Part shown: in pieces, positions 15,486 to 28,698 of the stretch
Layout of the letters: every line of letters begins with the position of its first letter
How positions within the stretch are numbered: position 1 is the first letter of the stretch
Assembly: GCA_031289315.1 (NCBI GenBank)
Contig: JAITPR010000016.1
Location: forward strand, 72,751 to 136,750
Source: Clostridiaceae bacterium
Lineage (GTDB): Bacteria > Bacillota > Clostridia > Christensenellales > CAG-917
Reading direction: 5' to 3'
Length of the DNA stretch: 64,000 nt
The notes under the pieces: generated by a model
The model's database searches: none
What the model was told of the DNA's origin: nothing
What the model saw: only the letters and a program-made list of their open reading frames with translations
Made by a program: the position numbers and the translations under genes

Positions 15486-16229
15486 ATGATATACTTAAAA
15501 ACTCCGACGGAAATAGAGAGAATGCGGGAGTCCGGCAAAATTGTCCGTGACGCGCTTCTTCTTGCCGACTCAATCGTACGGGCGGGGGTTACAACTGCGG
15601 AAATAAACGCCGCGGTGGAAAAGTTAATCAGAAACGCGGGCGCGGTGCCGTCCTTCCTAAACTACAACGGATTCCCGGCTTCGGCTTGCGTGTCCGTAAA
15701 CGGTGAGGTAGTTCACGGCATACCGGGCAGGCGGATAATAAAAGACGGCGATATAGTCAGCGTGGACGTGGGAGCGGTTAAGAACGGTTACCACGGCGAC
15801 GCCGCAAGAACCTTTACGGTAGGCGCGGTAAAGCCGGAAATCCTCAAGCTTGTAAGGGTGACGGAGGAATGCTTCTTTAAAGCGGTCGAAAGCTTTAAGG
15901 ACGGCGGACGGCTAGGCGACATCGGCGAGGCGGTTCAGCGCCATGCGGAAGGCAACGGTTTTTCCGTAGTACGCGCTTTGGTGGGTCACGGAATAGGTCG
16001 CGTCATGCACGAAGACCCGGCGGTTCCTAACTACGGTACGGCTGGACACGGCATAAGACTTTCAAAGGGGCTTGCCCTTGCGATTGAGCCTATGATTAAT
16101 TTAGGAAGCTACGACGTGCGCACATTGAGTGACGGTTGGACGGTAGTCACGGCGGACGGGAAACCCTCCTCACACTACGAAAACACGGTCGTGTTGACGT
16201 CAAACGGCACGGAAATACTTACGTTATAG
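15486..16229 (+). CDS. map: Type I methionine aminopeptidase
   Basis: Metal ligand context VDVGAVKNGYHGDAA...HGIG...EPM; position after adk. Confidence 0.96.
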   Translation: MIYLKTPTEIERMRESGKIVRDALLLADSIVRAGVTTAEINAAVEKLIRNAGAVPSFLNYNGFPASACVSVNGEVVHGIPGRRIIKDGDIVSVDVGAVKNGYHGDAARTFTVGAVKPEILKLVRVTEECFFKAVESFKDGGRLGDIGEAVQRHAEGNGFSVVRALVGHGIGRVMHEDPAVPNYGTAGHGIRLSKGLALAIEPMINLGSYDVRTLSDGWTVVTADGKPSSHYENTVVLTSNGTEILTL

Positions 16230-16248
16230 CCGAATGCGGCAAATAAAC

Positions 16249-16300
16249 GGGTGTGAACAGTTCGCGGTGACACATTCAAATAAACACGGATTTTTATTGA
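16249..16300. repeat. Decayed copy of the GTGGACA-palindrome repeat
   Basis: GTGTGAACAGTTCGCGGTGAC matches the left arm. The ..CACGGATT.. right arm is eroded. Confidence 0.5.
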
Positions 16301-16358
16301 GCGGTCGGGGGCGCGTCCTTCAAAACGTATTAATCAAATCCGTAAACGGCGGTCTTGT

Positions 16359-16628
16359 ATGCGTTTAGGTTCTATTGTTTTTTCAAAGGCGGGACGCGAC
16401 CGCGAAGGTTGTTTCGCGGTTGTCGCGGTCGTTGACGAGAATTACGTCAGGATTGCGGACGGCGAAAAGCACCGCTTAGAAAATGCCAAGCTGAAAAAGC
16501 TTAAGCATTTAAAGGATTCCGGCAGCGTGTTGGTGAAGATAGCCGAAAAGCTTGAACAAGGCGCCGTGGTATTCAATCAAGAAATTCGTTCCGCGTTGCG
16601 CGCTCATCAAGCGGGTGCTGCGGAATAA
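16359..16628 (+). CDS. KOW-domain RNA-binding protein (the small conserved gene between map and infA in Clostridia)
   Basis: GSIVFSKAGRDREGCFAVV KOW-like motif; conserved position. Confidence 0.75.
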   Translation: MRLGSIVFSKAGRDREGCFAVVAVVDENYVRIADGEKHRLENAKLKKLKHLKDSGSVLVKIAEKLEQGAVVFNQEIRSALRAHQAGAAE

Positions 16629-16732
16629 GCGGATTATCGCCCTAAGCGGCGCCTACGGCAAAGCGAAGGGTTCCCGTAAAAGGGCAATGCAATACGGACA
16701 ATGTTGAAAAACAACACTGAAACGGGGGTTTT

Positions 16733-16954
16733 ATGTCTAAGGAAGATGTAATTGAGGCTGAAGGCAAGGTAATAGAAGTGTTGCCTAACGCGATATTCAA
16801 GGTGCAGCTCGGGAACGGTCACATCGTAACCGCTTATCTGTCGGGCAAGCTGAGAATGAATTATATCAAGATATTGGAGGGAGATAAGGTTACGATTGAG
16901 CTTTCTCCCTACGACCTAACCAAAGGACGTATTATCTGGCGCAGTAAGAACTAA
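16733..16954 (+). CDS. infA: Translation initiation factor IF-1
   Basis: [40 protein letters not shown]. Confidence 0.97.
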
Positions 16955-17101
16955 AACCGCCTAAAAATGCCTTTAAACCGGCAAAAAAAGGGTTCGGTTC
17001 ACATTTAATCGCGCGGCTATCCGCGGCGGCTAAGAAACAAAAAATCCATTAAGAGCGTCGGCGGCAAGCCTAAGACGCGGCAAATAAAGGAGATAACTAC
17101 T

Positions 17102-17218
17102 ATGAAAGTAAGACCTTCCGTCAAGCCCATGTGCGATAAATGCAAGGTAATCAAGCGCAACGGCAGAGTTATGGTGATCTGCGCTAAGAACAAAAACCAC
17201 AAGCAAAGACAAGGCTAA
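17102..17218 (+). CDS. rpmJ: 50S ribosomal protein L36 (bL36, zinc form); absent from the ORF track because it is under 60 aa
   Basis: Hand translation gives [46 protein letters not shown] at 17088-17093. Confidence 0.93.
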
Positions 17219-17401
17219 TTCGCTTAAGGAGCGGCTGGTTTCCCGTTTCCTCCGTCAGGGTAGAGGGCTTTATGTTTAATTACATAACGCGCTCGCCCGT
17301 CACAAACAATCGTTTGAGCGGTACCGAAAAGAGAAACAAATTCCGTAAGCGTTGATATATATAGACAAAATTAAACTTTTTACTCATTTTGGAGGTAACA
17401 G

Positions 17402-17776
17402 ATGGCAAGAATTGCTGGTGTGGATTTACCCCGCGAAAAGCGTGTGGAAATCGGCTTAACCTACATCTACGGAATAGGTCGTCCTACCGCAAATAAAATA
17501 TTGGCGGATACGGGCATCAGTCCCGACATTCGCGTTAAGGACCTTACCGAACAACAGGTAAGCCTTATCAGAGAATACATCGAGAAAAACTTACGCGTAG
17601 AGGGCGACCTCAAACGTGAAGTGCTTCTTGATATTAAGCGACTCATGGAAATCGGTTGCTACCGCGGCGTAAGACACAGAAAGGGTCTACCCGTACGCGG
17701 TCAAAGCACCAAACAAAACGCCCGCACAAGGAAAGGCCCTAAGCGTACCGTAGGTCGCAAGAAGGCTAAGAAGTAA
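17402..17776 (+). CDS. rpsM: 30S ribosomal protein S13 (uS13)
   Basis: [26 protein letters not shown]. Confidence 0.97.
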
Positions 17777-17790
17777 GGGGAGGCACGATT

Positions 17791-18183
17791 ATGGCAGTCG
17801 CTAAGAAAGTTATAAGAAGAAGAAAAGATATTCGCCGTATTGAAAAGGGACAGGCGCACATACACGCGTCCTTTAACAATACCATAGTAACCGTAACCGA
17901 TATGGAAGGTAATACGATTTCGTGGTGTAGCGGCGGTAAGCTCAACTACAAGGGCTCAAGAAAAAGCACTCCGTTTGCGGCGCAAGTAATTGCCGAAAAC
18001 GCCGCCAAAGGGGCGACCGATAACGGAATGAGAAGCGTAGAGGTCTACGTTAAGGGTGCGGGCGCCGGGCGTGAGTCCGCAATCCGCGGTCTTTCAAACG
18101 CCGGGTTGGAGGTCACGTTGATACGCGACGTTTCTCCGATACCACACAACGGTTGCAGACCCCCGAAGCGCAGAAGGTTATAG
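17791..18183 (+). CDS. rpsK: 30S ribosomal protein S11 (uS11)
   Basis: [19 protein letters not shown]...WCSGG. Confidence 0.97.
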
Positions 18184-18196
18184 GAGGTAACGGAAT

Positions 18197-18820
18197 ATGG
18201 CTAAATATACAGGCGCTGATTGCCGCCTTTGCAGACGCGAAGGTTGCCAGCTTTATTTAAAAGGAAGCAAATGCTATTCCAACGCATGCACCTTTAAGAA
18301 GCGTCCTACCCCTCCGGGGCAGCACGGCGTGGGAAGAAAGAAGCAGTCGGGATATTCGATACAGCTTCGCGAAAAGCAAAAAACCAAACGTATTTACGGC
18401 ATTTTAGAAAAGCAATTTCATATGTATTATGAGAAAGCCGACAGAATGCGCGGTATTACCGGCGAAAATATGCTTATTTTAATCGAGCGTAGGCTTGATA
18501 ACGTCGTCTACCGTTTAGGCTATGCGCCGTCACGCTCCATGGCAAGACAGCTAGTTACACACGGACACTTCACCGTCAATGGTAAAAACGTCGACATCGC
18601 GTCCGTACTCGTCAGAGTCGGCGACGTGATAGCTATTAAGGAAAACAAAAAAAGCCTTAAAATTTGGACGGACTTGAAAGACGCAAAAGTGACTACTCCC
18701 AAGTGGCTTTCCTTCGACGGCAAAGAGCTTGTGGGAAAAGTCGTGGCGTTCCCCGAACGTGCGGACATCAGCGACGTAGACATCAAAGAACACCTTATCG
18801 TCGAGTTGTACTCGAAGTAA
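18197..18820 (+). CDS. rpsD: 30S ribosomal protein S4 (uS4, Cys-containing form)
   Basis: [26 protein letters not shown]; S4 domain. Confidence 0.96.
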
Positions 18821-18845
18821 GCGACCCTAAAATAGGAGGTTCACT

Positions 18846-19802
18846 ATGATAAAAATGAAAAGCCCCAAGATTACGTATGAGGAGAACGATGCCAAAAATT
18901 ACGCCAGATTTGTTGTCGAACCGTTAGAACGCGGTTTCGGTACCACGCTTGGCAACAGCTTGAGAAGAATTCTACTCTCCGCACTGCCGGGGGCGGCCGC
19001 CGTCGGCATCAAAATTGCTGGTGTCGAGCATGAATTCTCCACCATCAAGGGCGTGAAGGAAGACGTAACAGAGCTTATCCTCAACATAAAGGGTATTGCC
19101 GTTAAAATCCATGCGGCGGAATTAAGTACCGATAAAATAGCCTTGAAGCTGTACCGCGATACCGCGGGCGTCGTTACTGCGGGCGATATAACCACGCCGC
19201 ACGACGTTGTGATAATGAACCCGGACGCCTACCTCTGCGCTATTGACGAGGGCGGCGTGCTTGACATGACTATCTACGTTGACTCCGGCAGAGGCTACAT
19301 CTCCGCGGATAAAAACAAGGACTCCCGCGCTCCGATAGGCTTTATACCCGTGGACTCAATCTTCACGCCGGTTGAAAAGGTTAACTATTCGGTTGAGAGC
19401 ACTAGAGTTGAGCAGAGCATTGATTTTGATAAGCTCACAATCGAAGTGTCCACCGACGGAACGGTTACGGCGAAGGAAATTATAAGCCTTGCCGCCAAAA
19501 TCATGAACGAACACATCAAACTCTTTGTTGAACTTGTGGATACCATGGGTAGCACGCCTATCCTTGAAGACCCCGACGACGGCAAACACCAAAAGGTTTT
19601 GGAGATGTCAATAGAGGATTTGGACTTGTCCGTGCGTAGCTACAACTGCTTGAAGCGCGCCGGTATCAACACCGTTGAGGACTTGACCAGAAGAAGTGAA
19701 GACGATATGCTGAAAGTGAGAAACTTGGGACGTAAGTCTTTGGAAGAAGTAATAAAGAAGCTTGCCGACCTCGGTTTAGGTCTGAAGAAAGGCGACGAAT
19801 AG
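18846..19802 (+). CDS. rpoA: DNA-directed RNA polymerase subunit alpha
   Basis: FVVEPLERGFGTTLGNSLRRILLS and C-terminal domain (CTD) motif LDLSVRSYNCLKRAGI. Confidence 0.97.
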   Translation: MIKMKSPKITYEENDAKNYARFVVEPLERGFGTTLGNSLRRILLSALPGAAAVGIKIAGVEHEFSTIKGVKEDVTELILNIKGIAVKIHAAELSTDKIALKLYRDTAGVVTAGDITTPHDVVIMNPDAYLCAIDEGGVLDMTIYVDSGRGYISADKNKDSRAPIGFIPVDSIFTPVEKVNYSVESTRVEQSIDFDKLTIEVSTDGTVTAKEIISLAAKIMNEHIKLFVELVDTMGSTPILEDPDDGKHQKVLEMSIEDLDLSVRSYNCLKRAGINTVEDLTRRSEDDMLKVRNLGRKSLEEVIKKLADLGLGLKKGDE

Positions 19803-19820
19803 GAAGGAGGACAAAGGAAA

Positions 19821-20309
19821 ATGCCCGCAAAATTAGGTAGACCCACAGACCAACGCCTTGCGATTTTAAAAAATCAGGTGTCCGAGTTGTTGTGGTATGG
19901 AAAAATAGAAACAACCGTTGACAGAGCTAAATCCGTCAGAAGCATTGCCGAAAAGCTTATCACCGCAGCGGCGAAAACGTACGGCGATACTCAAACGGTT
20001 CAAAAGGAAAAAACCAATCTGAAAGGCGATAAGGTTAGCGTCGAATTTAAAAACGACGGTCCCCGTAAGCTTGCCGTCAGACGTAAGCTTATGTCCAAAC
20101 TTGTAGATTTGCATGAGGTTAAAGGCGACAAGGAGTCGAAAGCTAACTTCCGTGCACGCATTAAGGATATTAATCACCCCTTAATCGAAAAGATTTTCAA
20201 TGAGTACGGTCCTAAGTATGAGTCACGTCCGGGCGGATATACCCGCATCATAAAGTTGGGGACGCGGCGCGGCGACAATGCCGAAATCGCGATACTTGAG
20301 CTTGTATAA
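19821..20309 (+). CDS. rplQ: 50S ribosomal protein L17 (bL17), long form (162 aa)
   Basis: LGRPTDQRLAILKNQVSELL..GKIETT..RAK; C-terminal GGYTRIIKLG.RRGD. Confidence 0.95.
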   Translation: MPAKLGRPTDQRLAILKNQVSELLWYGKIETTVDRAKSVRSIAEKLITAAAKTYGDTQTVQKEKTNLKGDKVSVEFKNDGPRKLAVRRKLMSKLVDLHEVKGDKESKANFRARIKDINHPLIEKIFNEYGPKYESRPGGYTRIIKLGTRRGDNAEIAILELV

Positions 20310-20360
20310 CCTCGCCTCTCCTCACTTTCTCATGGCATGAGGATTTTGAGCCATAAATTT

Positions 20361-20406
20361 AAAAGCGCGGAATGAAAGTAAATTTTTACTGCATTCCGCG
20401 TTTTGT
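20361..20406 (+). terminator. Intrinsic terminator after rplQ
   Basis: GCGCGGAATG...CATTCCGCG stem followed by TTTTG. Confidence 0.75.
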
Positions 20407-20479
20407 CGTTCATTGACTTCAAACACAAAGGGTGAGAAATCCACCCTCACTCTCAAAGAAAAAAATGGATATGTAGAAG

Positions 20480-20558
20480 CTATTTGTCTAACAGCCAGTC
20501 AAGTACGTTTACCTTGCGTATACCGCCGAAGTCTGTTTCGGGGGTTTCGTCAAGAGTA
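20480..20558 (-). pseudogene. Relic 3' end (last ~25 codons plus stop) of a paralogue of the DUF4143 ATPase gene
   Basis: About 88% identical to 22875-22955. The rest of the CDS is missing and the fragment is joined directly to a copy of the ATPase upstream region. Confidence 0.8.
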
Positions 20559-20562
20559 AATA

Positions 20563-20591
20563 AGTATATATCAGAAGCAAGGACAAGTCAA
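20563..20591 (-). promoter_or_regulatory. Orphan promoter TTGACT-17-TATACT retained in the ATPase relic locus
   Basis: The reverse complement reads TTGACT tgtccttgcttctgata TATACT. Same hexamers and spacing as the promoter at 24180-24208. Confidence 0.55.
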
Positions 20592-20599
20592 ATAAGAAC

Positions 20600-20698
20600 G
20601 GGAACATAATCCACAAATCCTATGAAATAAAGAAGTTTATGGAACGTAATCCACAAACTTTTGAAAACGCTTGAGTTTGTGGAATGCAACCCATAAGG
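20600..20698 (-). repeat. Three iteron-like ~20-bp direct repeats at a 40-bp period (relic copy)
   Basis: GGGAACATAATCCACAAAT at 20600, TGGAACGTAATCCACAAACT at 20640, TGGAATGCAACCCATAAG at 20680. Confidence 0.75.
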
Positions 20699-20810
20699 TA
20701 TAATACATTTAGAAGTGCCGAAAAAGGGTTATAGTCGATAGCGGCGAGCGGAAAATTTTCGGGTAGAATTAGATTTTTTTATGCCGTAAAAAAAATTGTG
20801 TTTGCCTATT

Positions 20811-20840
20811 GACAAATGCGTTTTAGTAGTGTTATACTGT
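20811..20840 (+). promoter_or_regulatory. Strong sigma-A-type promoter TTGACA-18-TATACT
   Basis: TTGACA 20811-20816, TATACT 20835-20840. Confidence 0.6.
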
Positions 20841-20846
20841 TCCATG

Positions 20847-21099
20847 ATATGTTGATACGTATTCTGTAAACGAAAGTTGACGGAATTCTTGCGGCAGAGT
20901 AACAATGGAAAAAGGCTTCGGGGCGGCTTGCCGTCAATCGAAACCGACAGAAAAACTGAACCAACCAAACGGACGAGGGATAAAAGATGCGTAAATACGC
21001 GGCTTTATACACAAAATGCATGGGGGGGGGGTATTTTTGATTATCAAATAACCCTCTTAAACTCACAAAAAAACGGCGGAATGCGTGCCGGTTTTTTTT
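20847..21099 (+). ncRNA. Candidate ~250-nt non-coding transcript or leader between the promoter and a terminator-like hairpin (class unknown)
   Basis: No ORF with an SD. Internal stem TTGACGG(20879)/CCGTCAA(20933). G10 tract. Ends in a weak stem plus T9 at 21067-21099. Confidence 0.3.
21022..21031 (+). repeat. Homopolymeric G10 tract
   Basis: Ten consecutive G, counted directly, ~185 bp upstream of the LRR gene start. Confidence 0.95.
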
Positions 21100-21156
21100 C
21101 TGCATTTATCTGCGACGGTCTCAATCAAAGCCATAAAACTAAATAACTGACACCCT

Positions 21157-21185
21157 AAAACGACTTTTTATCAGTCGTTTTTTTG
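21157..21185 (+). terminator. Intrinsic terminator-like hairpin directly upstream of the LRR gene
   Basis: AAAACGACT ttttatc AGTCGTTTTTTT. Confidence 0.6.
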
Positions 21186-21214
21186 CATTTTAGAGCCATA
21201 TAGGAGGTATAAAT

Positions 21215-22594
21215 ATGGATATCGATTTTACAGTCGAAAACGGAGAAATAACAATAACGACTGATGGATTAACCGGAACCTTGGCAGAGGTTAACACTGC
21301 AATAGCGAATATTAACTCCAAACAGACGGATTTACTGTGTGTGTCCGCAGATTTCGATTTTGAAGCCATAGGCGGAGAAATAACGATAACTGCTTACAAG
21401 GGCTCCGCAAGCGTCGTGACAATTCCGGCTGAAATAGCAGGTATACCCGTGTGCTATGTAGGAGAATCCATATTTGATAATTCTAACAATATAAGACAGA
21501 TCAACTTACCCAACGAAACTTGTGCCAAAGATTTTGACATAGAGAAATTTTTTTTAAACCTTGATTTTCAGGGGATAAACATATTAAATAGAAAATATGC
21601 ATATAGAGAGAGTGACATGCTGTTATCTGACTATGGCGAAACGCTTCTCTATTATAAAAACAGTGGTACAACTCTTACAATCCCCGTGGGTATTAAGACG
21701 ATAACGACAGAAACATTTTCAGATCAGAGCATTGTTGAAACTGTGCGCATACCCGCTAGTTTGGAATATATAGATGAAGAGCAGCTATCTTACTTCTCTA
21801 TAGAGTCAGAGCCGCTACAATTTTTTTCAGAGGGCGATAAATTAATTAAAATAGAAGTGGACGCTGCCAACACCAAATATAAAGATATAGACGGAGTGTT
21901 GTTTAGTAAAGACGGCAAAGTACTTATAAAATATCCTTGCTGCAAAATAGGAACCCATTATAATATCCCCGATGAAGTGGAGATTATATGCCCCTGTGCA
22001 TTTTTTGGGTGCCGTTTTTTAAATAGCATATATTTCGCTAATGTACAATTAATAAAAAGAAATTATCGCTATTATGACAGAATTAATCAAGACGACTCCT
22101 ACTTTAATAGAGAAATATTTTTTGAACTATGTTTTTCAGATTGTGAGGCATTAACAACCATAACAGTAAATTTCACAAATGCTGAGTATAAGGATATTGA
22201 CGGAGTACTATGCACGGCTACAGGAGAACTTCTCAAATATCCTGAAGCTAGAGTATGCGTAAATTATGTTATACCGGACGGTGTGAAGTATGTAAACTCG
22301 GGGGCTTTCAGGAATGCTAGGTTATTGAACGGCGTGATGATATCTCAGAATGTTACATATCGAAGAGCTCTTTTATATTTTTTGCAAAAAGATAATAAAA
22401 AAGCATTTTATTGTGGTACGACAACGCAATGGAACACTTACAAATCGGAAAACTGGAAGCAGGGTACTGAGAATGAGTTCGGCCATGACGGCAATGTAAT
22501 CAGTGAGAGATTATTATTCTGTTTCTCCGACACTCAACCGACTGAAGAGGGCAAATATTGGCATTATGTGAACGGCGTGCCGACGGAGTGGTAA
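21215..22594 (+). CDS. Leucine-rich-repeat protein, BspA-like (LRR_5 type); no signal peptide seen
   Basis: Repeated I/V-P..V..I...AF..C..L..I units (e.g. YNIPDEVEIICPCAFFGCRFLNSIYF). AGGAGG SD. Low GC. Confidence 0.8.
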   Translation: MDIDFTVENGEITITTDGLTGTLAEVNTAIANINSKQTDLLCVSADFDFEAIGGEITITAYKGSASVVTIPAEIAGIPVCYVGESIFDNSNNIRQINLPNETCAKDFDIEKFFLNLDFQGINILNRKYAYRESDMLLSDYGETLLYYKNSGTTLTIPVGIKTITTETFSDQSIVETVRIPASLEYIDEEQLSYFSIESEPLQFFSEGDKLIKIEVDAANTKYKDIDGVLFSKDGKVLIKYPCCKIGTHYNIPDEVEIICPCAFFGCRFLNSIYFANVQLIKRNYRYYDRINQDDSYFNREIFFELCFSDCEALTTITVNFTNAEYKDIDGVLCTATGELLKYPEARVCVNYVIPDGVKYVNSGAFRNARLLNGVMISQNVTYRRALLYFLQKDNKKAFYCGTTTQWNTYKSENWKQGTENEFGHDGNVISERLLFCFSDTQPTEEGKYWHYVNGVPTEW

Positions 22595-22713
22595 ATCTCG
22601 CGGTCTGCTTATGCTGACAATGCCGTGGTAGTTCGCGGTGAAGCATGATAATCTTGAACCGCGTCCGCTTGAAAGAAACAAATAGGTTCAAAGACACGAA
22701 AGGGTTACATTGT

Positions 22714-22874
22714 CACTAATAGAATTAAAAAACGCGGTTGATGGGCAAGGAACTTGCGTCAACCGCGTTTTTAAAGTAATCAGTGTCAAGCTTCAAGCTT
22801 GCGCGTTTTTGGGATTCTTTCTTGCCGGCAAGAAAGAACGGAAACTCACACTTGTGGTTTGTGCGGCGTGACGC
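22714..22874. repeat. Mosaic multi-hairpin repeat, copy C (inverted relative to A/B; includes terminator hairpin 22727-22775)
   Basis: Modules H2, H3 (CAAGCTTcAAGCTTG) and H1 (ATTCTTTCTTGccggCAAGAAAGAAC). The first ~95 bp are nearly identical to 24407-24502. Confidence 0.85.
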
Positions 22875-24074
22875 TTATTTATCTAACAGCCAATCAAGTA
22901 CGTTTAGCTTGCGTATGCCGCCGAAGTTTGTTTCGGGGGTATCGTCGAGGGTAAGGAGCAGTTTAGGGTAGTGGTCTGTTATTGCTTTGAGGGAAGCGAG
23001 TTCACGTTCAAGCGTGGCTTGGTTGCGGACTGTCGCCGCCACTTGAAAATAGGCTGTACCTTGTGAGGTAACGGCGACGAAATCGACTTCTTTTGAATCG
23101 ACCTTACCTACGTAAACGTCATAGCCCCTACGGAGGAGTTCTAAGTAAACGATATTTTCGAGGATACGCCCCTCATCGTAGTTTTGCCGTCCTAACAGCG
23201 TAAAACGAAGCCCTATATCGGTGGCGTAATATTTTTCCAGAGTTTTTAAATATTGTTTGCCTTTTATATCGTAGCGTTTTGCTTGATAGATAATAAAGCT
23301 GTTTGTAAAGGCGGAAAGGTATTTTTCAACGGTTTTTACGTCGATTTTTCTTCCGTTTGAAGTCATGGTATCCGCGATACTTTTAGTGGAAAGTAGGTTT
23401 GCAATGTTATCATATAGAAAGCGGAGGACGCTTTCAAGTTGCATTAAATCGTTGAATTTATTGTGTTGCATTATATCTTTCAAAACAACGGTAGAATAAA
23501 TCCCACGCAAATAGTCGTCCGTATTTTTTTTGTCGCCGGCAAGTTCCGTGACGTAAGGAAAAGAACTTCTTTCGATATATTCGCGGTATTTGCTGGAAAC
23601 GGACTTATTATCTTTGGTTGCAGTCGAATATTCGGCAAATGAGAGCGGGAGCATTTCTATTGTGATGTAGCGTCCGGAAAGGAGGGTGGCAAGCTCGCCG
23701 GACAAGAAAAAGGCATTTGAACCGGTGATATAAATGTCCAGTTCTTTTCGCAAAAACAGGCTATCCACTACTTGTTCAAAGTCCGCAACATTCTGAATTT
23801 CATCGAAAAACACGTAGCTTTTTTTGCCGGGTTGAATCAGCGAAATAACATATTCGTGCAATACGTGCTTGTCGCGGAGGTGAGTGTTAGACATGTTCTC
23901 GAAGTCTACGGCGATTATTTGCGCCGAATCTACGCCGCAACTTTCCGTGAGATATTCTTTAAAAAGTTCTAAGAGGGAGGATTTGCCGCAACGGCGTATC
24001 CCCGTAATTACTTTTATGACATGCTTATCCTTCCACGCGATAAGCCGATCTAAATATTCTTTACGTTGAATCAT
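22875..24074 (-). CDS. AAA+ ATPase with a C-terminal DUF4143 (PD-(D/E)XK-like) domain, COG1373 type
   Basis: Walker A GIRRCGKSSLL. MIQRKEYL start at 24074 with GGAGG SD; the longer ORF-track start at 24131 runs into the repeat and was rejected. Confidence 0.85.
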   Translation of the reverse strand: MIQRKEYLDRLIAWKDKHVIKVITGIRRCGKSSLLELFKEYLTESCGVDSAQIIAVDFENMSNTHLRDKHVLHEYVISLIQPGKKSYVFFDEIQNVADFEQVVDSLFLRKELDIYITGSNAFFLSGELATLLSGRYITIEMLPLSFAEYSTATKDNKSVSSKYREYIERSSFPYVTELAGDKKNTDDYLRGIYSTVVLKDIMQHNKFNDLMQLESVLRFLYDNIANLLSTKSIADTMTSNGRKIDVKTVEKYLSAFTNSFIIYQAKRYDIKGKQYLKTLEKYYATDIGLRFTLLGRQNYDEGRILENIVYLELLRRGYDVYVGKVDSKEVDFVAVTSQGTAYFQVAATVRNQATLERELASLKAITDHYPKLLLTLDDTPETNFGGIRKLNVLDWLLDK

Positions 24075-24094
24075 AAAAGTACCTCCGTGATTAC

Positions 24095-24165
24095 GGATGT
24101 GGACAATCCGCTGTGACGATTTGCTAGGCAAGAAAATATTTTGTCACTGCGAACTGTTTCCACCC
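24095..24165. repeat. GTGGACA-palindrome repeat, full copy in the 5' UTR of the ATPase gene
   Basis: GTGGACAATCCGCTGTGACGA..AAGAAAATATTTTGTCACTGCGAACTGTTTCCACCC. The arms pair. Its end lies 20 nt from the ATG. Confidence 0.9.
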
Positions 24166-24179
24166 ATGATTACCGTTTG

Positions 24180-24208
24180 AGTATACATCGGAAATAAGTA
24201 TAAGTCAA
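24180..24208 (-). promoter_or_regulatory. ATPase promoter TTGACT-17-TATACT
   Basis: The reverse complement reads TTGACT tatacttatttccgatg TATACT. It lies between the iterons and the palindrome repeat. Confidence 0.6.
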
Positions 24209-24216
24209 ATAAAAAT

Positions 24217-24316
24217 GGGAACGCAATCCAAAAACTCTGTAAAATAAGATAGTTTTTGGAACGCAATCCAAAAACTTTCGAAATCAACGAAGTTTTGGGA
24301 ATGTAATCCAAAAACT
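24217..24316 (-). repeat. Three iteron-like 20-bp direct repeats at an exact 40-bp period, two with internal 10-bp inverted repeats
   Basis: GGGAACGCAATCCAAAAACT at 24217, TGGAACGCAATCCAAAAACT at 24257, GGGAATGTAATCCAAAAACT at 24297. AGTTTTTGGA-n6-TCCAAAAACT at 24251-24276. Confidence 0.85.
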
Positions 24317-24406
24317 TTTAAAATGATTTTAAGAAAGTTTTTTCGTTTCGGACAAGAAAAAGGGAAGTATAGGAGTAACTAAAAAGTCACCGGGTTGATG
24401 TTTGGT

Positions 24407-24622
24407 ACTAATCAATTAAAAAACGCGGTTGATGGGCAAGGAACTTGCGGCAACCGCGTTTTTAAAGTAATCAGTGTCAAGCTTCAAGCTTGCGTGTTTT
24501 TGGTTCTTTTGCCGCATAGCAAAAGAACAAGGGCGTTCTTTTGCCGCGTAGCGAAAGAACAGAGGCTCAAGCTTTAAGCTTGCAGTTTTTCAGTTCCTTT
24601 TGGGCGTCAGAAGGAACGAGAG
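24407..24622. repeat. Mosaic multi-hairpin repeat, copy D (H2 terminator 24417-24465, H3, three H1-type hairpins)
   Basis: Direct repeat of copy C across the ATPase locus. H1 hairpins at 24497-24524, 24529-24557 and 24589-24616. Confidence 0.85.
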
Positions 24623-24623
24623 C

Positions 24624-25826
24624 TTACTTCAAGCCGTAGAAATTTTTCAGGGCTTTGGCGGCGCTATTAAGAGATGAGGCTTTGACGCAGAGAGAGATTT
24701 TCGTTTCGCTGGTGGTGATGGCGTGGACGGTTACGGAGGCGGTGCTTAGGATATTGAGCACTTCCATAGCCACACCGCTACGGTGGGGCATTCCGGCGCC
24801 TTCAATGGTTAGTTTGGCGGCGTTCTTGACGGTGGAATAATCAATGTTAAGCGACTTAACCGCCGTTTCGGCGTGCTTGCAATCGGAGCTGTGGAGGGTG
24901 AAACTGGTGTTTATGCCGGTTGTCGCAGGAGTTTGACTTATCATGTCGAGTATGACGCCGCGTTCGGCAAGCTTGAGGAGGAGCGACGAGAAGCGTTCCG
25001 GAGTTATGGCGTAGGCGGTGAACAGGCATTGTTCGGCTTCGGCGGAGATATTTGTAACGGAGTAGAAGCGGGCGAGTATGGAATTCATATCGTAAAGCCC
25101 GCTTTTTTTATCGGCAAGAAAGGACGCCGCACGGAGCGCGCCGTATACGAACACGTCTTTTGAGTTCGCCTCATGGGAGAGTGTGACGGTTTCGCCTTGC
25201 CCGATAAACATTATATCGTGCTTGCCGATTATACTTCCGCCGCGCACCGCGTGGATGCCTAACTCGCGTTTTTCGCGTCGATGGTCGGGGTCGTGTCTGC
25301 CGTAGACGGGTTCAAGGCGGTTCAGAAGCGCTTCATTGACGGCTTTGGCGATGGAAACCGCCGTGCCGCTGGGCGCGTCCAATTTGCGGTTGTGGTGTTG
25401 CTCGATGATTTCCACGTCATAGTCTTCGCCTAAGAACTTCGCCGCGTCTTTGGCAAGACCGGTTATCAGGTTCACGCCTAAGGACATGTTGCTAGACTTG
25501 AACACCGCTATGGTTTTGGCGGCGTCGCGCAGCTCGACGTCTTGAGCGGGAGAAAGCCCGGTCGTTGCGATGACGGCGTTTATGCGATTTTTGACGGCGT
25601 AGTCGATTATGCCGTCGAACGCGGCGTGGTTGGAAAAATCAATTATCACGTCGGCGGGAGCGGTTATGTCGGAGATATTCTTAAATACGGGAACATCAAA
25701 ATCCCGTTCGGTGTTTTCGGCGTATAGATCCACGCCGGCTACGATGTTGAAGTTGTCGCTTTTGTAGGTGGCGGCATATACCGCGCGTCCTAAGCGACCG
25801 CCTATACCGGTAATTATAATGTTCAT
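24624..25826 (-). CDS. dapB: 4-hydroxy-tetrahydrodipicolinate reductase fused to a C-terminal tandem ACT (aspartokinase beta-subunit-like) domain
   Basis: DapB motifs GIGGRLGR and EQHHNRKLDAPSGTA. About 148 extra residues carry GAGM..RSGVAMEVL..L......V.AITTSETKISL. Confidence 0.85.
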   Translation of the reverse strand: MNIIITGIGGRLGRAVYAATYKSDNFNIVAGVDLYAENTERDFDVPVFKNISDITAPADVIIDFSNHAAFDGIIDYAVKNRINAVIATTGLSPAQDVELRDAAKTIAVFKSSNMSLGVNLITGLAKDAAKFLGEDYDVEIIEQHHNRKLDAPSGTAVSIAKAVNEALLNRLEPVYGRHDPDHRREKRELGIHAVRGGSIIGKHDIMFIGQGETVTLSHEANSKDVFVYGALRAASFLADKKSGLYDMNSILARFYSVTNISAEAEQCLFTAYAITPERFSSLLLKLAERGVILDMISQTPATTGINTSFTLHSSDCKHAETAVKSLNIDYSTVKNAAKLTIEGAGMPHRSGVAMEVLNILSTASVTVHAITTSETKISLCVKASSLNSAAKALKNFYGLK

Positions 25827-25872
25827 AGTACCCCGTGCGTATTTTTTCCGTCTAACGGTTTAAAAGAGTTGT

Positions 25873-25901
25873 AGTATACAAAAACGGCGTTTAGTTCTCA
25901 A
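25873..25901 (-). promoter_or_regulatory. Possible dapB promoter TTGAGA-17-TATACT overlapping the dapA terminator
   Basis: The reverse complement reads TTGAGA actaaacgccgtttttg TATACT. Confidence 0.4.
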
Positions 25902-25925
25902 GTTTTTGAGTGTAAACGCCGTTTT
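25880..25925 (-). terminator. Intrinsic terminator 6 nt after the dapA stop
   Basis: AAAACGGCGTTTA...TAAACGCCGTTTTT: 13-bp stem plus T-run (read on the minus strand). Confidence 0.7.
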
Positions 25926-25930
25926 AGATT

Positions 25931-26806
25931 TTAAAATTGTTTTAAAAGCTCGGCTAATACGGCGGTATTTTCCGAAGACAGTTCGGTTAAGGGCAGGCGT
26001 ACAAGACCATTCGTCAAGCCCATAATTTCGGAAGCTTTCTTAACGGGTATCGGGTTTACCTCGGCGAATAACGCCTTTATAAGCGGCAATACCTTTAACT
26101 GCATGTCACGCGCCTTTGCCGTATCGCCTTGGAGCCACGCCGCGGTTAGGTCGTGCATGTAGCGGGGAATGACGTTCGAAGCGACGCTTATAACGCCTTG
26201 TCCGCCCACGGACATAATCGGAACAATTATTCCGTCGTCGCCGGAGTACACGTCGGCAAGCCCTTCACAGAGGCGTGCGGTTTCAGAAATCTGTTCCATG
26301 TTACCGGACGCTTCCTTAATTGCTACAATGTTCTTGTGTTCGGCAAGCTTGCGGAAGGTGGCGGGAAGTAGGTTCACGTTCGTGCGTCCCGGCACATTGT
26401 AGGCTATGATAGGTATGTTGATTGCGTCCGCCACCGCGTTGAAGTGCGCCACTAAACCGCCCTGCGTACACTTGTTGTAGTAGGGTGTGACGATAAGCAC
26501 CGCGTCCGCGCCCCACGCCTCGGCGTTTATTGCGGCTTTCACTGTAGCGTCCGTGGAGTTGCTGCCCGCGCCGGCTATGACGGGGACGCGCTTCTTCACT
26601 TTTTTGATGACGAATTTAATTACGGCTTCCTTTTCCTCCGCCGACATGGTGGCGGGTTCGCCGGTGGTACCGCACACTATAAGCGCGTCGACACCCTCGG
26701 AGAGCTGAAAGCGTATAAGCTTTTCAAGTGCGGGAAAATCCACACCGTCCGTCGCAAACGGAGTTATTAAAGCGGTTCCGCAACCCTTGAATATGGTATT
26801 CTTCAT
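25931..26806 (-). CDS. dapA: 4-hydroxy-tetrahydrodipicolinate synthase
   Basis: GTALITPF...GVDALIVCGTTGE...AIKEASG (active-site Lys context). Confidence 0.95.
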   Translation of the reverse strand: MKNTIFKGCGTALITPFATDGVDFPALEKLIRFQLSEGVDALIVCGTTGEPATMSAEEKEAVIKFVIKKVKKRVPVIAGAGSNSTDATVKAAINAEAWGADAVLIVTPYYNKCTQGGLVAHFNAVADAINIPIIAYNVPGRTNVNLLPATFRKLAEHKNIVAIKEASGNMEQISETARLCEGLADVYSGDDGIIVPIMSVGGQGVISVASNVIPRYMHDLTAAWLQGDTAKARDMQLKVLPLIKALFAEVNPIPVKKASEIMGLTNGLVRLPLTELSSENTAVLAELLKQF

Positions 26807-26957
26807 AATAAAATCCCCCTTATATTATTGCCGCATTACGGCGGCGCCGAATTTTTTTGCTTCCTTTTTTCGCAGAGGTTAGCGCAAAAATAAAATATTT
26901 TGCGTCACTATACCGGTTGACAAGCTTTTTCTTACGTTGAACGGAAAGCCTCACAAA

Positions 26958-27035
26958 TTTTTACTTGCGCAGAGTTTACCCGTGAGCGAAGCCAATTTTA
27001 CTTGCGCTTAATCTTGCCCGTGAGCATGATTTCGG
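26958..27035 (-). repeat. Tandem duplication (37-bp period) of the asd 3' end including the stop codon
   Basis: TTACTTGCGC...CCCGTGAGC occurs at 26961-26988 and again at 26998-27026 (the latter is the real gene end). Confidence 0.8.
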
Positions 27036-28005
27036 CGATTTGGATGGCGTTTGAAGCCGCCCCCTTACGTATGTTATCCGCCACGCACCAAAGGTTGCAA
27101 CCGCTTTTCACGGTGGGATCCAAACGCACTCTGCCCACGTACACCTCGTCATGGTCCACGGCGTTTATAACCATGGGGTAGACGAGATTTTTAACGTCGT
27201 CCGCAAGTACGATACCGGGAGCGTTTTTCAAGGCTTCTTTTATGCCCTCAAGCGTCGCGGGCTTTTCGAATTCGATGTTAATCGACTCGCTGTGTCCGTG
27301 GAAAACCGGCACGCGTACGGTGGTAGCCGTAACTTTTAAATCGGGTGCGTGCAAGATTTTACGCGTTTCATCAATCATTTTATGCTCTTCTTTGGTGTAT
27401 CCGTCCTCAAGAAAGACATCGATGTGCGGAAGAATGTTGTTGAATATGGGGTATGGGAACTTCTTAGGCGCTATGCCTTCGATACCGTTCTTCAAATCCT
27501 CATAGCCGGCAACGCCCGCGCCGGAAACCGCCTGATAGGTGCTGTACACGACGCGCTTTATGATGTACTTATCGTGCAACGGCTTCAACGCGACTACCGC
27601 TTGAATGGTGGAGCAGTTGGGATTGGCGATTATGCCCTTGTTCCACGCGATGTCTTCGGGGTTGACCTCCGGCACAACGAGGGGCACTTTTTCGTCCATA
27701 CGCCACTGGCTGCTGTTGTCTATGACGACCGCGCCGATTCCGGCGAAAATCGGCGCGAATTCCTTAGAAACGCCGCCGCCTGCGGAAAACAGCGCGATGT
27801 CGATTTTCTTATCGACGATATTCTCGCGCTTAAGCTCTATAACCGTGAGGTCTTTGCCCAACAGATTTATGGTTTTGCCCGCGCTTTTCGCGGAAGCGTA
27901 GAGATAATAATTCTCCACGGGGAGGTTTTTTTCGGTAAGAACCTCTAAAAACTTGTTTCCGACCATTCCCGTTGCGCCGACCACGGCTATGTTAATCTTT
28001 TTCAT
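26998..28005 (-). CDS. asd: Aspartate-semialdehyde dehydrogenase
   Basis: MKKINIAVVGATGMVG start with GGAGG SD; active-site NPNCSTI. The longer ORF-track start at 28110 overlaps the promoter and was rejected. Confidence 0.95.
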   Translation of the reverse strand: MKKINIAVVGATGMVGNKFLEVLTEKNLPVENYYLYASAKSAGKTINLLGKDLTVIELKRENIVDKKIDIALFSAGGGVSKEFAPIFAGIGAVVIDNSSQWRMDEKVPLVVPEVNPEDIAWNKGIIANPNCSTIQAVVALKPLHDKYIIKRVVYSTYQAVSGAGVAGYEDLKNGIEGIAPKKFPYPIFNNILPHIDVFLEDGYTKEEHKMIDETRKILHAPDLKVTATTVRVPVFHGHSESINIEFEKPATLEGIKEALKNAPGIVLADDVKNLVYPMVINAVDHDEVYVGRVRLDPTVKSGCNLWCVADNIRKGAASNAIQIAEIMLTGKIKRK

Positions 28006-28081
28006 TTTCGTGCCTCCGACCGCCTTGTGCGACTGCTTTGCATAAGACGGTTTTGATACTATAATTATATTATGTTGTAAA

Positions 28082-28110
28082 ATTCTATCATGCGCACGCC
28101 TATATGTCAA
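28082..28110 (-). promoter_or_regulatory. asd-dapA promoter TTGACA-17-TAGAAT
   Basis: The reverse complement reads TTGACA tataggcgtgcgcatga TAGAAT. The ~75-nt leader is too short for an L-box. Confidence 0.65.
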
Positions 28111-28218
28111 GCGCGTTTGCGTAAGAGGAGATTTAATTTAAGGTCAGATAAAGGTTTGAGTAAGTGCGCAGTGAAAATAAAAAAAACCGCTCTTGCAATT
28201 ACTTTCGCGCCTTAAAAT

Positions 28219-28263
28219 AAAAACGCAGTTGACGCAAGCAAATTGCTTTTGTCAACCGCGTTT
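28219..28263 (-). terminator. Terminator hairpin (H2-type module of the mosaic family) after the small zinc-ribbon gene
   Basis: ACGCAGTTGAC...GTCAACCGCGT stem flanked by an A-run and T-run. Confidence 0.6.
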
Positions 28264-28358
28264 AAAGTTAAAGATCTGTTTTATCGCTGTTAGGGTGTTT
28301 GGTTTTTATTGATTTATTATGTTCTTACCTATCGGTTTGGTTATACGACGCAATGAAA

Positions 28359-28607
28359 TCATGCCGACCATATACTACCGCAGTTAATACAAACATACAA
28401 CCTGGAATGGTCGCCACTAACTCCCAATAAGATCTTACCCAAAATACCGGTGAACATAAAAAATTCGCAAGATACAACACTGTGACCGCAGTATGAGCAA
28501 GATCCTCCACTCGACATATACTTCAGAAATTTATTTATTTCTGAAGATTTTAATTTTGTGTTTACGTCTAGTATTGCCTCAATTCTTCCTCTATCTGTAT
28601 AAGCCAT
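28359..28607 (-). CDS. Hypothetical 82-aa protein with CxxC...CxxC (zinc-ribbon-like) and a hydrophobic segment
   Basis: GAGGAG SD 5 nt upstream of the ATG; CSYCG...CINCG; low-GC context. The overlapping alternative frame 28325-28510 lacks an SD. Confidence 0.55.
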   Translation of the reverse strand: MAYTDRGRIEAILDVNTKLKSSEINKFLKYMSSGGSCSYCGHSVVSCEFFMFTGILGKILLGVSGDHSRLYVCINCGSIWSA

Positions 28608-28698
28608 GGGTACTCCTCATTGGTTTTATTATTTTCGTTATATTATTACTATGGTAAGAAGTCAAGTATTTTCTTACATTTGTGAGAAACTTTTTATC

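What the first reader, a model, noticed from the sequence alone, without database searches (positions are those of the whole stretch)
20480..24316. Iteron-like 20-bp repeats at an exact 40-bp period upstream of a DUF4143 ATPase promoter, conserved in a gene-less relic locus
- Intact locus: upstream of the ATPase promoter (TTGACT-17-TATACT, 24180-24208) lie three repeats (G/T)GGAA(C/T)G(C/T)AATCCAAAAACT starting at 24217, 24257 and 24297. They sit exactly four helical turns apart. The second contains a perfect AGTTTTTGGA-n6-TCCAAAAACT inverted repeat.
- Relic locus: 3.6 kb away (20480-20698) is a second copy in the same orientation. It keeps three diverged repeats (..AATCCACAAA..) with the same 40/40-bp spacing. 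It also keeps the same promoter hexamers and spacing.
- Deletion: in the relic, the promoter is followed directly by only the last ~25 codons of a paralogous ATPase (88% identical). This is a ~1.2-kb deletion, with a possible GAGTA microhomology junction.
- Interpretation: conservation of the spacing despite sequence drift argues for a cooperative protein-binding array. The binder could be an autoregulator, or the ATPase's own PD-(D/E)XK-like domain.
- Arrangement: the two loci flank the low-GC LRR gene as direct repeats.
- Background: as far as I know, COG1373/DUF4143 ATPases are abundant but functionally uncharacterised.
Basis: partly seen in the sequence, partly recalled or inferred. Interest (0 to 1): 0.65.

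Follow-up and report, generated by a model that had tools for sequence, protein, structure and literature searches.

The report
Self-operator array of a defence-candidate ATPase
The 40-bp-spaced repeats are palindromic binding sites built into the promoter of a very common but uncharacterised ATPase-nuclease gene (phage-defence candidate PDC-S01), and sequence evidence from about 250 related genes indicates that the protein binds them itself to control its own expression.

Summary
Three 26-bp units lie at an exact 40-bp period (24211-24236, 24251-24276, 24291-24316), upstream of a TTGACT-17-TATACT promoter. A gene-less copy lies at 20563-20699.

Each unit is a palindrome, AGTTTTTGGA-N6-TCCAAAAACT, not a direct iteron.

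The gene (22875-24074, minus strand) encodes an AAA_14/DUF4143 protein that matches the PADLOC candidate PDC-S01.

In 167 usable related loci from many phyla, 68% carry the same kind of palindrome just upstream, against 0.02 expected. Half-site spacing peaks sharply at 40/41 bp. The usual module is: full operator, 14-bp spacer holding the -35, a lone half-site, then the -10.

No neighbouring gene is conserved.

The inner operator bases track residues of a predicted winged-helix recognition helix inside the ATPase. Lys247 goes with G in 40 of 40 cases, and His247 with A or C in 27 of 27. The pattern recurs in a separate set of 39-53% relatives.

Best reading: the protein binds its own promoter through this internal winged helix, most likely as a cooperative autorepressor. 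Binding and its direction are inferred, not shown.

I found no published description. Iteron/origin, RNA-hairpin and host-regulator readings are not supported.

The parts
22875..24074 (-). ATPase-nuclease gene (399 aa). Predicted domains: AAA+ 1-150, helical lid, winged helix about 207-285 (recognition helix 246-258), PD-(D/E)XK-like 301-399.
   Evidence: Pfam AAA_14 (7e-33) and DUF4143 (2e-20). PADLOC PDC-S01 model PDLC04787, E=1e-153 over the full length. AF2 model pLDDT 89, pTM 0.89.
24075..24179 (-). About 100-nt 5' leader between the -10 and the ATG. It holds a degenerate duplicate of the RBS segment that the 82%-identical relative L001 lacks.
   Evidence: Sequence read. Function not tested.
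24180..24208 (-). Promoter TTGACT (24203-24208) -17- TATACT (24180-24185). The 17-nt spacer holds a degenerate remnant of the promoter-internal half-site.
   Evidence: for the promoter. Family architecture.
24211..24236 (-). Operator unit 3 (promoter-proximal): AGTTTTTGGA-TTGCGT-TCCCATTTTT. The distal arm is intact and the arm nearest the promoter is degenerate.
24251..24276 (.). Operator unit 2: the perfect palindrome AGTTTTTGGA-TTGCGT-TCCAAAAACT.
   Evidence: 10 of 10 arm pairs.
24291..24316 (.). Operator unit 1 (distal): AGTTTTTGGA-TTACAT-TCCCAAAACT, 9 of 10 arm pairs. The 14-nt spacer towards unit 2 contains TTGATT, a -35-like remnant.
20563..20699 (-). Relic promoter (-10 at 20563-20568, -35 at 20586-20591) plus three diverged operator units at 20594-20619, 20634-20659 and 20674-20699. 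Their half-sites are of the TTTGTGGA type.
   Evidence: Gapless 75% alignment to 24180-24313. Promoter scan.
20480..20560 (-). Relic 3' end of a paralogous ATPase: the last 26 codons plus the stop.
   Evidence: translation. 90% DNA identity to 22876-22954.
22723..22812 (+). Direct repeat D2, copy 1. It is a terminator-like hairpin segment just after the ATPase stop codon.
   Evidence: 98% identical to copy 2. extends it to about 128 nt at 90.6%.
24414..24503 (+). Direct repeat D2, copy 2. It lies upstream of the operator array and downstream of dapB.

Best explanation
The repeats are operators for the product of the gene they precede.

The protein and its sites
- The ATPase is an AAA+ / winged-helix / PD-(D/E)XK protein of the PDC-S01 (AAA_14-DUF4143, COG1373) family.
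- It carries an internal winged helix that reads a 26-bp palindrome, AGTTT-xxxxx-N6-xxxxx-AAACT, as a dimer.
- The variable inner triplets of the two arms lie 11 bp apart. That is one helical turn, which would suit two recognition helices in adjacent major grooves.
- The conserved T-tracts could be read by the wings.

The family's basic module
- One full operator abuts the -35.
- A 14-bp spacer contains the -35.
- A lone half-site fills the -35/-10 spacer.
- The -10 sits where the centre of the next palindrome would be.

Consequence
- Occupancy of these sites should exclude RNA polymerase, which gives negative autoregulation of a potentially toxic nuclease that travels between hosts as a single-gene cassette.
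- The window's gene has three tandem 40-bp modules: two strong distal operators and a weakened proximal one. This suggests cooperative, concentration-dependent repression.
- The relic locus is a decayed second cassette. Its operators are of a different specificity type (TTTGTGGA).

Shown and inferred
- Shown by computation: conservation, geometry, absence of any partner gene, and protein-operator covariation.
- Inferred: physical binding, the dimeric mode, the direction of regulation and cooperativity.
For: Conservation
- Family-like palindromes occur in 114 of 167 upstream regions, against 0.021 per 220 nt in 911 kb of flanks.
- A palindrome with at least 9 of 10 arm pairs occurs in 58 of 83 upstream regions, against 12% of control windows.
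- The hosts include Treponema, Clostridia, Bacteroidales, Gastranaerophilales, Elusimicrobia, Synergistales, Oxalobacter and Thermotogota.

Phasing
- The histogram of same-orientation half-site spacings has 93 pairs at 40 bp, 62 at 41, 15 at 80 and 24 at 82, over a background of 1-11 per bin.
- 33 of 36 protein clusters (70% identity) have half-sites 39-42 bp apart.

Promoter embedding
- 48 of 107 proximal operators are followed at once by TTGA[CTA], against 5.8% at random; 39 of those have a -10 at 16-18 nt.
- 47 of 107 have a half-site exactly one period downstream. 43 of these lack the right arm, and 33 are followed within 0-1 nt by TAnnnT.

No partner gene
- The largest cluster of homologous neighbours is found in only 8 of 81 loci.

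Covariation
- Residue 247 in the predicted recognition helix ranks first of 271 variable columns for mutual information with the operator.
- K247 goes with G at operator position 9 in 40 of 40 cases, H247 with A or C in 27 of 27, and D245 with G in 42 of 45.
- Q246 goes with A at position 7 in 12 of 13 cases. K231 and the wing residue K277 track position 6.
- These pairings (Lys-G, Gln-A, Asp opposite C) are chemically conventional. That judgement rests on my own knowledge.

Tree-aware test
- The top co-changing columns are K231 (position 6; 5 co-changes against 0.3 expected, P=8e-7), T248 (position 8) and K247 (position 9; 6 against 1.1 expected, P=2e-4).

Separate set of more distant relatives
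- Relatives of 39-53% identity on viral contigs keep the architecture. H247 goes with xTGCA, K247 with xGGAC, and new residues go with new cores.

Structure
- The model has H-H-H-hairpin winged-helix topology at residues 210-284. The whole protein resembles ORC/Cdc6 and STAND AAA+-WHD proteins.
Against: - No experiment shows binding or regulation.
- Covariation is confounded by shared ancestry. A cruder test gave only 2 helix-turn-helix columns among the top 10 raw-MI columns (P=0.10). Non-HTH columns such as L34 and N156 also score well.
- About a third of the upstream regions lack a motif that passes my thresholds.
- Three paralogues of 30-38% identity show no obvious equivalent, so the result may not extend to all DUF4143 proteins.
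- In the window itself the promoter-proximal sites are the weakest. Activation or a mixed switch is therefore not excluded.
- The winged-helix assignment rests on a predicted model. Pfam gives only a sub-threshold MCM_C wHTH hint (E=0.035).
Confidence: 0.75

Rival explanations
1. Iterons of a replication origin or a partition site. The AAA+/winged-helix protein would act like Orc1/Cdc6 or a plasmid Rep protein, with the array as the origin of a small integrated replicon.
For: - The fold resembles ORC/Cdc6, including Sulfolobus Orc1 bound to origin DNA (2qby_B).
- The repeated sites lie next to the gene of the putative binder, as at archaeal origins.
- The cassette is widely transferred between hosts.
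Against: - The units are palindromes, not direct repeats.
- Most family members have only one full site plus a half-site, positioned precisely around the -35 and -10.
- No other replicon gene is conserved nearby.
- The site lies in a chromosome between rplQ and dapB.
- I did not look for an AT-rich unwinding element or DnaA boxes.
Confidence: 0.04
2. The sites do bind the ATPase, but as an activator or a two-state switch, in the manner of restriction-modification C proteins or lambda cI. High-affinity distal sites would stimulate transcription and weak proximal sites would shut it off.
For: - In the window and in its 82% relative L001, the strong palindromes are distal and the promoter-proximal elements are degenerate.
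- The full operator ends at the -35, a position where some activators bind.
Against: In most relatives a well-conserved half-site occupies the -35/-10 spacer and abuts the -10. That position is typical of repression by occlusion. No data bear on the direction of regulation.
Confidence: 0.15
3. Neutral tandem duplication and shared ancestry. The period would simply reflect a duplicated 40-bp segment with no function.
For: - The upstream spacers retain -35-like remnants (TTGATT at 24278-24283 on the gene's strand). This indicates that the array grew by duplication of an operator-plus-(-35) module.
Against: - Palindromy and spacing persist from 39% to 100% protein identity.
- Both arms change symmetrically, and the changes match changes in the protein.
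- In the gene-less relic the units are decaying, as expected once selection is lost.
Confidence: 0.03
4. A structured RNA or DNA hairpin, such as a weak terminator or insulator against read-through from dapB, or a site for a host-encoded regulator.
For: - The terminator scan flags the units as stem-loops followed by T-rich tails.
- The array folds with z = -5 against shuffles.
- Symmetric arm changes would also preserve a hairpin.
Against: - Any palindrome array folds well, so the fold score does not discriminate.
- The stems are A/T-rich, with 3 G-C pairs.
- The units lie upstream of the promoter, after a much stronger terminator (D2).
- There is no Rfam match.
- A hairpin does not explain covariation with residues 231 and 245-248.
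- A host regulator cannot be shared across so many phyla, and no regulator gene is linked.
Confidence: 0.03

Closest known systems
Controller (C) proteins and C-boxes of restriction-modification systems; lambda cI at OR (recalled from my own knowledge)
   Same: - Palindromic operators are built into the promoter of the regulator's own gene.
- Adjacent sites differ in strength.
- The presumed purpose is to keep a mobile, potentially toxic nuclease gene under tight self-control.
   Different: - Here the DNA-binding domain is part of the ATPase-nuclease polypeptide itself, not a separate small HTH protein.
- The operators are 26 bp and repeat at 40/41 bp.
- There is no methylase partner.
Archaeal Orc1/Cdc6 with ORB elements, and DnaA autoregulation at dnaA boxes
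   Same: - An AAA+ module followed by a winged helix (Foldseek hits to ORC/Cdc6 including 2qby_B).
- Repeated specific sites lie next to the protein's own gene.
   Different: - The sites are inside a sigma-70-type promoter, not flanking an unwinding element.
- The protein carries a C-terminal PD-(D/E)XK domain.
- There is no evidence of origin function.
Plasmid iterons with Rep initiators
   Same: Multiple phased copies of a roughly 20-bp motif lie upstream of a gene whose product may bind them, with possible autoregulation.
   Different: - Iterons are direct repeats, usually about 22 bp apart, in a replicon that also has an AT-rich region and DnaA boxes.
- These units are inverted repeats at 40 bp in a chromosomal promoter.
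PDC-S01 (PADLOC phage-defence candidate; AAA_14-DUF4143, COG1373)
   Same: The window protein matches the PDC-S01 HMM over its full length.
   Different: The literature I could search describes only the family's abundance and domain content. It says nothing about DNA specificity, operators or regulation, and defence activity is untested.
Dedicated repressors of defence islands (for example RptR, title seen; BrxR and CapW recalled from my own knowledge)
   Same: Transcriptional control of defence genes through palindromic sites in their promoters.
   Different: Those are separate regulator genes. Here regulator and effector appear to be one protein.

Membership tests
PDC-S01 / AAA_14-DUF4143 ATPase | N-terminal AAA_14 P-loop domain | tested here: met
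   PF13173, E=7e-33, residues 20-149.
PDC-S01 / AAA_14-DUF4143 ATPase | C-terminal DUF4143 (PD-(D/E)XK-like) region | tested here: met
   PF13635, E=2e-20, residues 199-345. The model shows a winged helix followed by an alpha-beta-beta-beta-alpha-beta domain. DUF4143 is listed as PD-(D/E)XK in PMC3424549. Catalytic residues were not examined.
PDC-S01 / AAA_14-DUF4143 ATPase | Match to the PADLOC PDC-S01 profile | tested here: met
   PDLC04787, E=9.6e-154, model positions 10-408 of 412.
PDC-S01 / AAA_14-DUF4143 ATPase | Anti-phage activity | not testable with these tools
   PDCs are untested candidates according to 10.1101/2024.01.29.577857 and PMC12988326.
Autoregulatory operator array | Palindromic sites that overlap or flank the -35 and -10 of the regulator's own promoter | tested here: met
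   the operator abuts the -35, and a half-site fills the spacer and abuts the -10.
Autoregulatory operator array | The binder is the product of the downstream gene | tested here: inconclusive
   Supported by covariation between operator bases and recognition-helix residues and by the absence of any conserved neighbour. No binding experiment exists.
Autoregulatory operator array | Fixed spacing of multiple sites, consistent with cooperative binding | tested here: met
   A sharp 40/41-bp peak with an 80/82-bp harmonic. Cooperativity itself is inferred.
Plasmid iterons / replication origin | Direct (non-palindromic) repeats of about 17-22 bp at a period of roughly two helical turns | tested here: not met
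   The units are 10-6-10 inverted repeats at a 40-bp period.
Plasmid iterons / replication origin | Linked Rep initiator and other replicon functions | tested here: not met
   The neighbours are rplQ, an LRR protein and dapB/dapA/asd. No neighbour is conserved across 81 loci.
Orc1/Cdc6-ORB origin | AAA+ ATPase with a C-terminal winged helix that binds origin boxes | tested here: inconclusive
   Fold resemblance only, with TM-scores of about 0.3 over the full length. The protein has an extra nuclease domain, and the sites are embedded in a promoter.
Known structured RNA / intrinsic terminator | Match to an Rfam family, or a G+C-rich stem with a U-tail within a transcript | tested here: not met
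   No Rfam match with E of 0.1 or better in 15000-30000. The stems have 3 G-C pairs and lie upstream of the promoter.

The most novel reading that the evidence does not exclude
The sequence-specific winged helix and its operator array may be more than a dial on expression. Two readings remain open.

(a) The array could be a parking and assembly site. An ORC/STAND-like oligomer of the ATPase-nuclease would be held inactive there and released or activated on infection. Each paralogue would have an orthogonal 'address', which would explain the diversifying recognition code.

(b) The cassette could be a new kind of self-mobilising single-gene element. Its site-specific ATPase-nuclease would mediate its own insertion. 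Possible traces are the imperfect 50-230-bp flanking direct repeats in several unrelated loci, the orphan operator arrays and the relic copies.
Probability: 0.12. Interest if true: 0.85.

Novelty: new variant of a known kind. Interest (0 to 1): 0.6.

Why it matters
PDC-S01 (COG1373, AAA_14-DUF4143) is reported as the fourth most common defence-type gene in prokaryotes and the most frequent single locus in rumen genomes (PMC12988326, PMC13356809). Nothing is known about how it works.

This analysis makes three points testable:
- The protein appears to be a sequence-specific DNA binder with a readable recognition code.
- It carries its own operator-promoter module wherever it travels.
- The 40/41-bp phasing follows from promoter geometry.

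These points suggest direct experiments: band-shift assays, specificity swaps at residues 245-251, and reporter fusions. They also give a way to predict the cognate site of any family member. In addition, they explain how a potentially toxic single-gene nuclease could establish itself in very different hosts. Orphan operator arrays may also be useful as markers of lost cassettes.

Tried and rejected
- **Iteron/origin reading.** Rejected on repeat symmetry, promoter embedding and the lack of replicon genes.
- **RNA element.** No Rfam hit. The strong fold z-score is expected for any palindrome array, so it is uninformative.
- **Linked regulator gene.** None is conserved.
- **Solved relatives by sequence.** Nothing better than E = 0.1. 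NCBIfam was uninformative.
- **Pfam scan of the isolated winged-helix segment.** Only a sub-threshold MCM_C wHTH hint.
- **Crude enrichment test.** Helix-turn-helix columns among the top 10 raw-MI columns were not significant (P=0.10). I rely instead on the rank-1 column, the near-deterministic contingency tables, the tree-aware co-change test and the separate viral-contig set.
- **More distant paralogues (30-38% identity).** No obvious equivalent motif, so I do not generalise to all DUF4143 proteins.
- **Literature.** Searches for DUF4143, PDC-S01 and guilt-by-embedding found no description of the operators. The AAA_14/COG1373 search was mostly noise.
- **GAGTA microhomology at the relic junction.** It could not be confirmed from the sequence.
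Full report
**1. What is in the window**

- The gene at 22875-24074 (minus strand) encodes a 399-aa protein with AAA_14 and DUF4143 domains.
- It matches the PADLOC phage-defence candidate PDC-S01 over its full length (E=1e-153).
- Upstream lie a TTGACT-17-TATACT promoter (24208-24180) and three units at 24211-24236, 24251-24276 and 24291-24316.
Tandem Repeats Finder reports a period of 40.
- Each unit is a 10-6-10 palindrome, AGTTTTTGGA-N6-TCCAAAAACT. The middle one is perfect.

**2. The relic**

- 20563-20696 aligns without gaps to 24180-24313 at 75% identity, so the promoter and the 40/40 spacing are kept.
- It is followed directly by the last 26 codons of a paralogous ATPase, with 23 of 26 residues identical.
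- The whole segment 20300-24500 has a lower G+C content (0.34-0.46) than its flanks (0.48-0.55). It sits between rplQ and dapB.

**3. Relatives**

- The protein is identical to one from a MAG labelled Clostridiaceae, and it has thousands of homologues.
- I collected 8 loci by exact protein look-up, 80 from species genomes, 80 from metagenomes and 80 from viral contigs.
- Proteins 52-62% identical occur in Treponema, many Clostridia, Bacteroidales, Gastranaerophilales, Elusimicrobia, Synergistales, Oxalobacter, Thermotogota and Coriobacteriia. The gene therefore moves between phyla.
- No neighbouring gene is conserved. The largest cluster of homologous neighbours occurs in 8 of 81 loci.

**4. 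The palindrome is a family feature**

- Nearly every upstream region shows AAGTTT-xxxx-N6/7-xxxx-AAACTT.
- A palindrome with at least 9 of 10 arm pairs occurs in 58 of 83 upstream regions, against 12% of control windows.
- A family-like operator occurs in 114 of 167 upstream regions, against 0.021 expected per 220 nt from 911 kb of flanking DNA.
- The outer AGTTT/AAACT is nearly constant. The inner five bases differ between lineages (TTGGA, TTGCA, TTGTA, TGGGA, TGGAA, TAGGA, GTAAA and others), and both arms change together.

**5. The 40-bp period is a family feature and has a structural reason**

- Distances between same-orientation half-sites peak at 40 (93 pairs) and 41 (62), with harmonics at 80 (15) and 82 (24). 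The background is 1-11 per bin.
- Units with a 6-nt centre repeat at 40 bp and units with a 7-nt centre at 41 bp. The 14-bp edge-to-edge spacer is therefore what stays constant.
- 33 of 36 protein clusters (70% identity) show the phasing, and 10 have three or more units in a chain.
- The common module is: full operator, then N-TTGAyw-N7 (the -35 inside the 14-bp spacer), then a lone 10-nt left half-site, then TATAAT where the next palindrome's centre would be. L100, L122, L024 and L011 are clear examples.
  - 48 of 107 proximal operators are followed at once by TTGA[CTA], against 5.8% at random. 39 of those have a -10 at 16-18 nt.
  - 47 of 107 have the downstream half-site. 43 of these lack the right arm, and 33 abut TAnnnT.
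- Seven spacer bases plus the 10-nt half-site give the optimal 17-nt gap between the -35 and the -10. The period is thus tied to promoter geometry.
- The window's upstream spacer still contains TTGATT. This indicates that longer arrays grew by duplication of the operator-plus-(-35) module.

**6. Who binds**

- The AF2 model (pLDDT 89, pTM 0.89) shows four parts:
  - an AAA+ core (residues 1-150);
  - a helical lid;
  - a winged helix (helices 210-222, 230-236 and 246-258, with a hairpin at 262-284);
  - an alpha/beta nuclease-like domain (301-399).
- Foldseek's best hits are AAA+-WHD proteins: STAND proteins (Apaf-1, CED-4, plant NLRs), ORC/Cdc6 and clamp loaders.
- Across 106 distinct proteins, the alignment column most informative about the operator is residue 247, in the predicted recognition helix. 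It ranks first of 271 variable columns.
- The contingency tables are nearly deterministic:

| Residue | Operator base | Count |
|---|---|---|
| K247 | G at position 9 | 40 of 40 |
| H247 | A or C at position 9 | 27 of 27 |
| P247 | A at position 9 | 9 of 10 |
| D245 | G at position 9 | 42 of 45 |
| Q246 | A at position 7 | 12 of 13 |

- K231 (helix 2) and K277 (wing) track position 6.
- I built a neighbour-joining tree without the winged-helix columns and used parsimony to find changes on the same branch. The best columns were K231 for position 6 (5 co-changes against 0.3 expected), T248 for position 8 and K247 for position 9 (6 against 1.1 expected).
- In the separate viral-contig set (39-53% identity), H247 again goes with xTGCA and K247 with xGGAC. 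New residues (D, V) go with new cores (TTCGA, TTGAA).
- Caveats:
  - Shared ancestry inflates such associations.
  - A cruder top-10 enrichment test gave P=0.10.
  - Some columns outside the helix-turn-helix also score well.

**7. Mechanism**

- The most economical reading is that the ATPase-nuclease binds its own promoter through the internal winged helix.
- The variable triplets of the two arms are 11 bp apart, as expected for a dimer that uses successive major grooves.
- Sites on both sides of the -35, reaching to the -10, point to repression by occlusion.
- In the window and in its 82% relative L001, the promoter-proximal elements are degenerate while the two distal palindromes are strong. 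A cooperative or two-state switch therefore remains possible.
- Binding, stoichiometry and the direction of regulation are all inferred.

**8. The relic and related observations**

- The relic's half-sites are mostly TTTGTGGA, whereas the intact gene has TTTTTGGA. It probably belonged to a paralogue with a different specificity and is now decaying.
- Gene-less operator arrays also occur next to relatives: L040 5240-5340, L042 around 7297 and L025 around 5811.
- The intact cassette is bracketed by a 90-nt direct repeat (98% identical), at 22723-22812 and 24414-24503.
- Imperfect flanking repeats of 50-230 nt occur in several unrelated loci. 17 of 212 loci share a 16-mer across the gene, against 2 of 138 controls (P=0.007). 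I could not decide between target duplication, integration of a circular intermediate and remnants of tandem cassettes.

**9. Comparison with known systems and novelty**

- Functionally this resembles self-controlled mobile nuclease genes (restriction-modification C proteins) and AAA+/winged-helix initiators that bind repeats beside their own genes (Orc1/Cdc6, DnaA). These comparisons rest on my own knowledge.
- It fails the defining tests for iterons: the repeats are inverted, there is no replicon, and the sites are embedded in a promoter.
- The searchable literature treats PDC-S01 only as an abundant, untested candidate made of an ATPase fused to a PD-(D/E)XK domain. I found no description of operators, DNA specificity or autoregulation.
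- I rate it a new variant of a known kind. Autoregulation itself is ordinary. The family's abundance, the built-in DNA reader and the readable code make the finding useful.
- Paralogues of 30-38% identity lacked an obvious equivalent. The claim is therefore limited to the PDLC04787-type subfamily, down to about 39% identity.

Noticed in passing
window 22723-22812 and 24414-24503; also L019, L230/L232, L132, L026, L016, L063, L048: The ATPase cassette is bracketed by a 90-nt direct repeat (98% identical; about 128 nt at 90.6% when extended). Imperfect flanking repeats of 50-230 nt with locus-specific sequence occur in several unrelated homologous loci. 17 of 212 loci share a 16-mer across the gene, against 2 of 138 control segments (P=0.007). 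This could be a trace of insertion or only a remnant of tandem cassettes.
   Followed up: partly
L040 5240-5340; L042 about 7297-7323; L025 about 5790-5836: Operator arrays of the family type occur with no ATPase gene behind them, like the window's relic. They may be traces of lost cassettes or decoy sites.
   Followed up: partly
window 21022-21031: A G10 homopolymer lies between a strong promoter-like site (TTGACA-18-TATACT with an upstream TG, 20809-20838, plus strand) and the low-G+C BspA-type LRR gene (21215-22594). It could be a phase-variable tract. Terminator-like hairpins lie at 21074-21090 and 21157-21181.
   Followed up: no
window 24075-24179: The ATPase leader is about 100 nt long. 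It contains a degenerate duplicate of the RBS segment (GTAATCATGGGTGG against GTAATCACGGAGGT) and a small inverted repeat. The 82%-identical relative L001 has a leader of only about 25 nt.
   Followed up: no
window 20300-24500: A 4-kb island of lower G+C content (0.34-0.46, against 0.48-0.55 in the flanks) lies between the end of the ribosomal protein/rpoA/rplQ operon and dapB-dapA-asd. It holds the relic, the LRR gene and the intact cassette.
   Followed up: partly
L054 compared with L051: A MAG labelled Methanomethylophilaceae (archaeon) and a Bacteroidaceae genome show the same operator call (position and arms) with a bacterial-type promoter; the two printed 26-mers differ at one central base. 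This suggests bin contamination or very recent transfer.
   Followed up: no
L236, L239, L240, L243 (viral contigs, about 40% identity): A variant layout in which two half-sites in the opposite relative orientation (TTTCCCAAAATC ... GATTTTGGGAAA) flank the -35 directly, with a gap of about 11 nt, instead of the full-operator-plus-half-site module.
   Followed up: no
L045, L053, L152, L161: A second, distant (30-38% identical) DUF4143 paralogue lies next to the first in four of the 169 loci searched. Three were examined, and none shows an obvious equivalent of the operator motif.
   Followed up: partly
window 3052-3199, 40501-40635, 44314-44457, 54170-54256, 61713-61777: Other tandem repeats in the window: 72 nt x2.1, 69 nt x2, 56 nt x2.6, 45 nt x1.9, and an 11-nt AAAAAACGC-type unit x6. 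None was examined.
   Followed up: no
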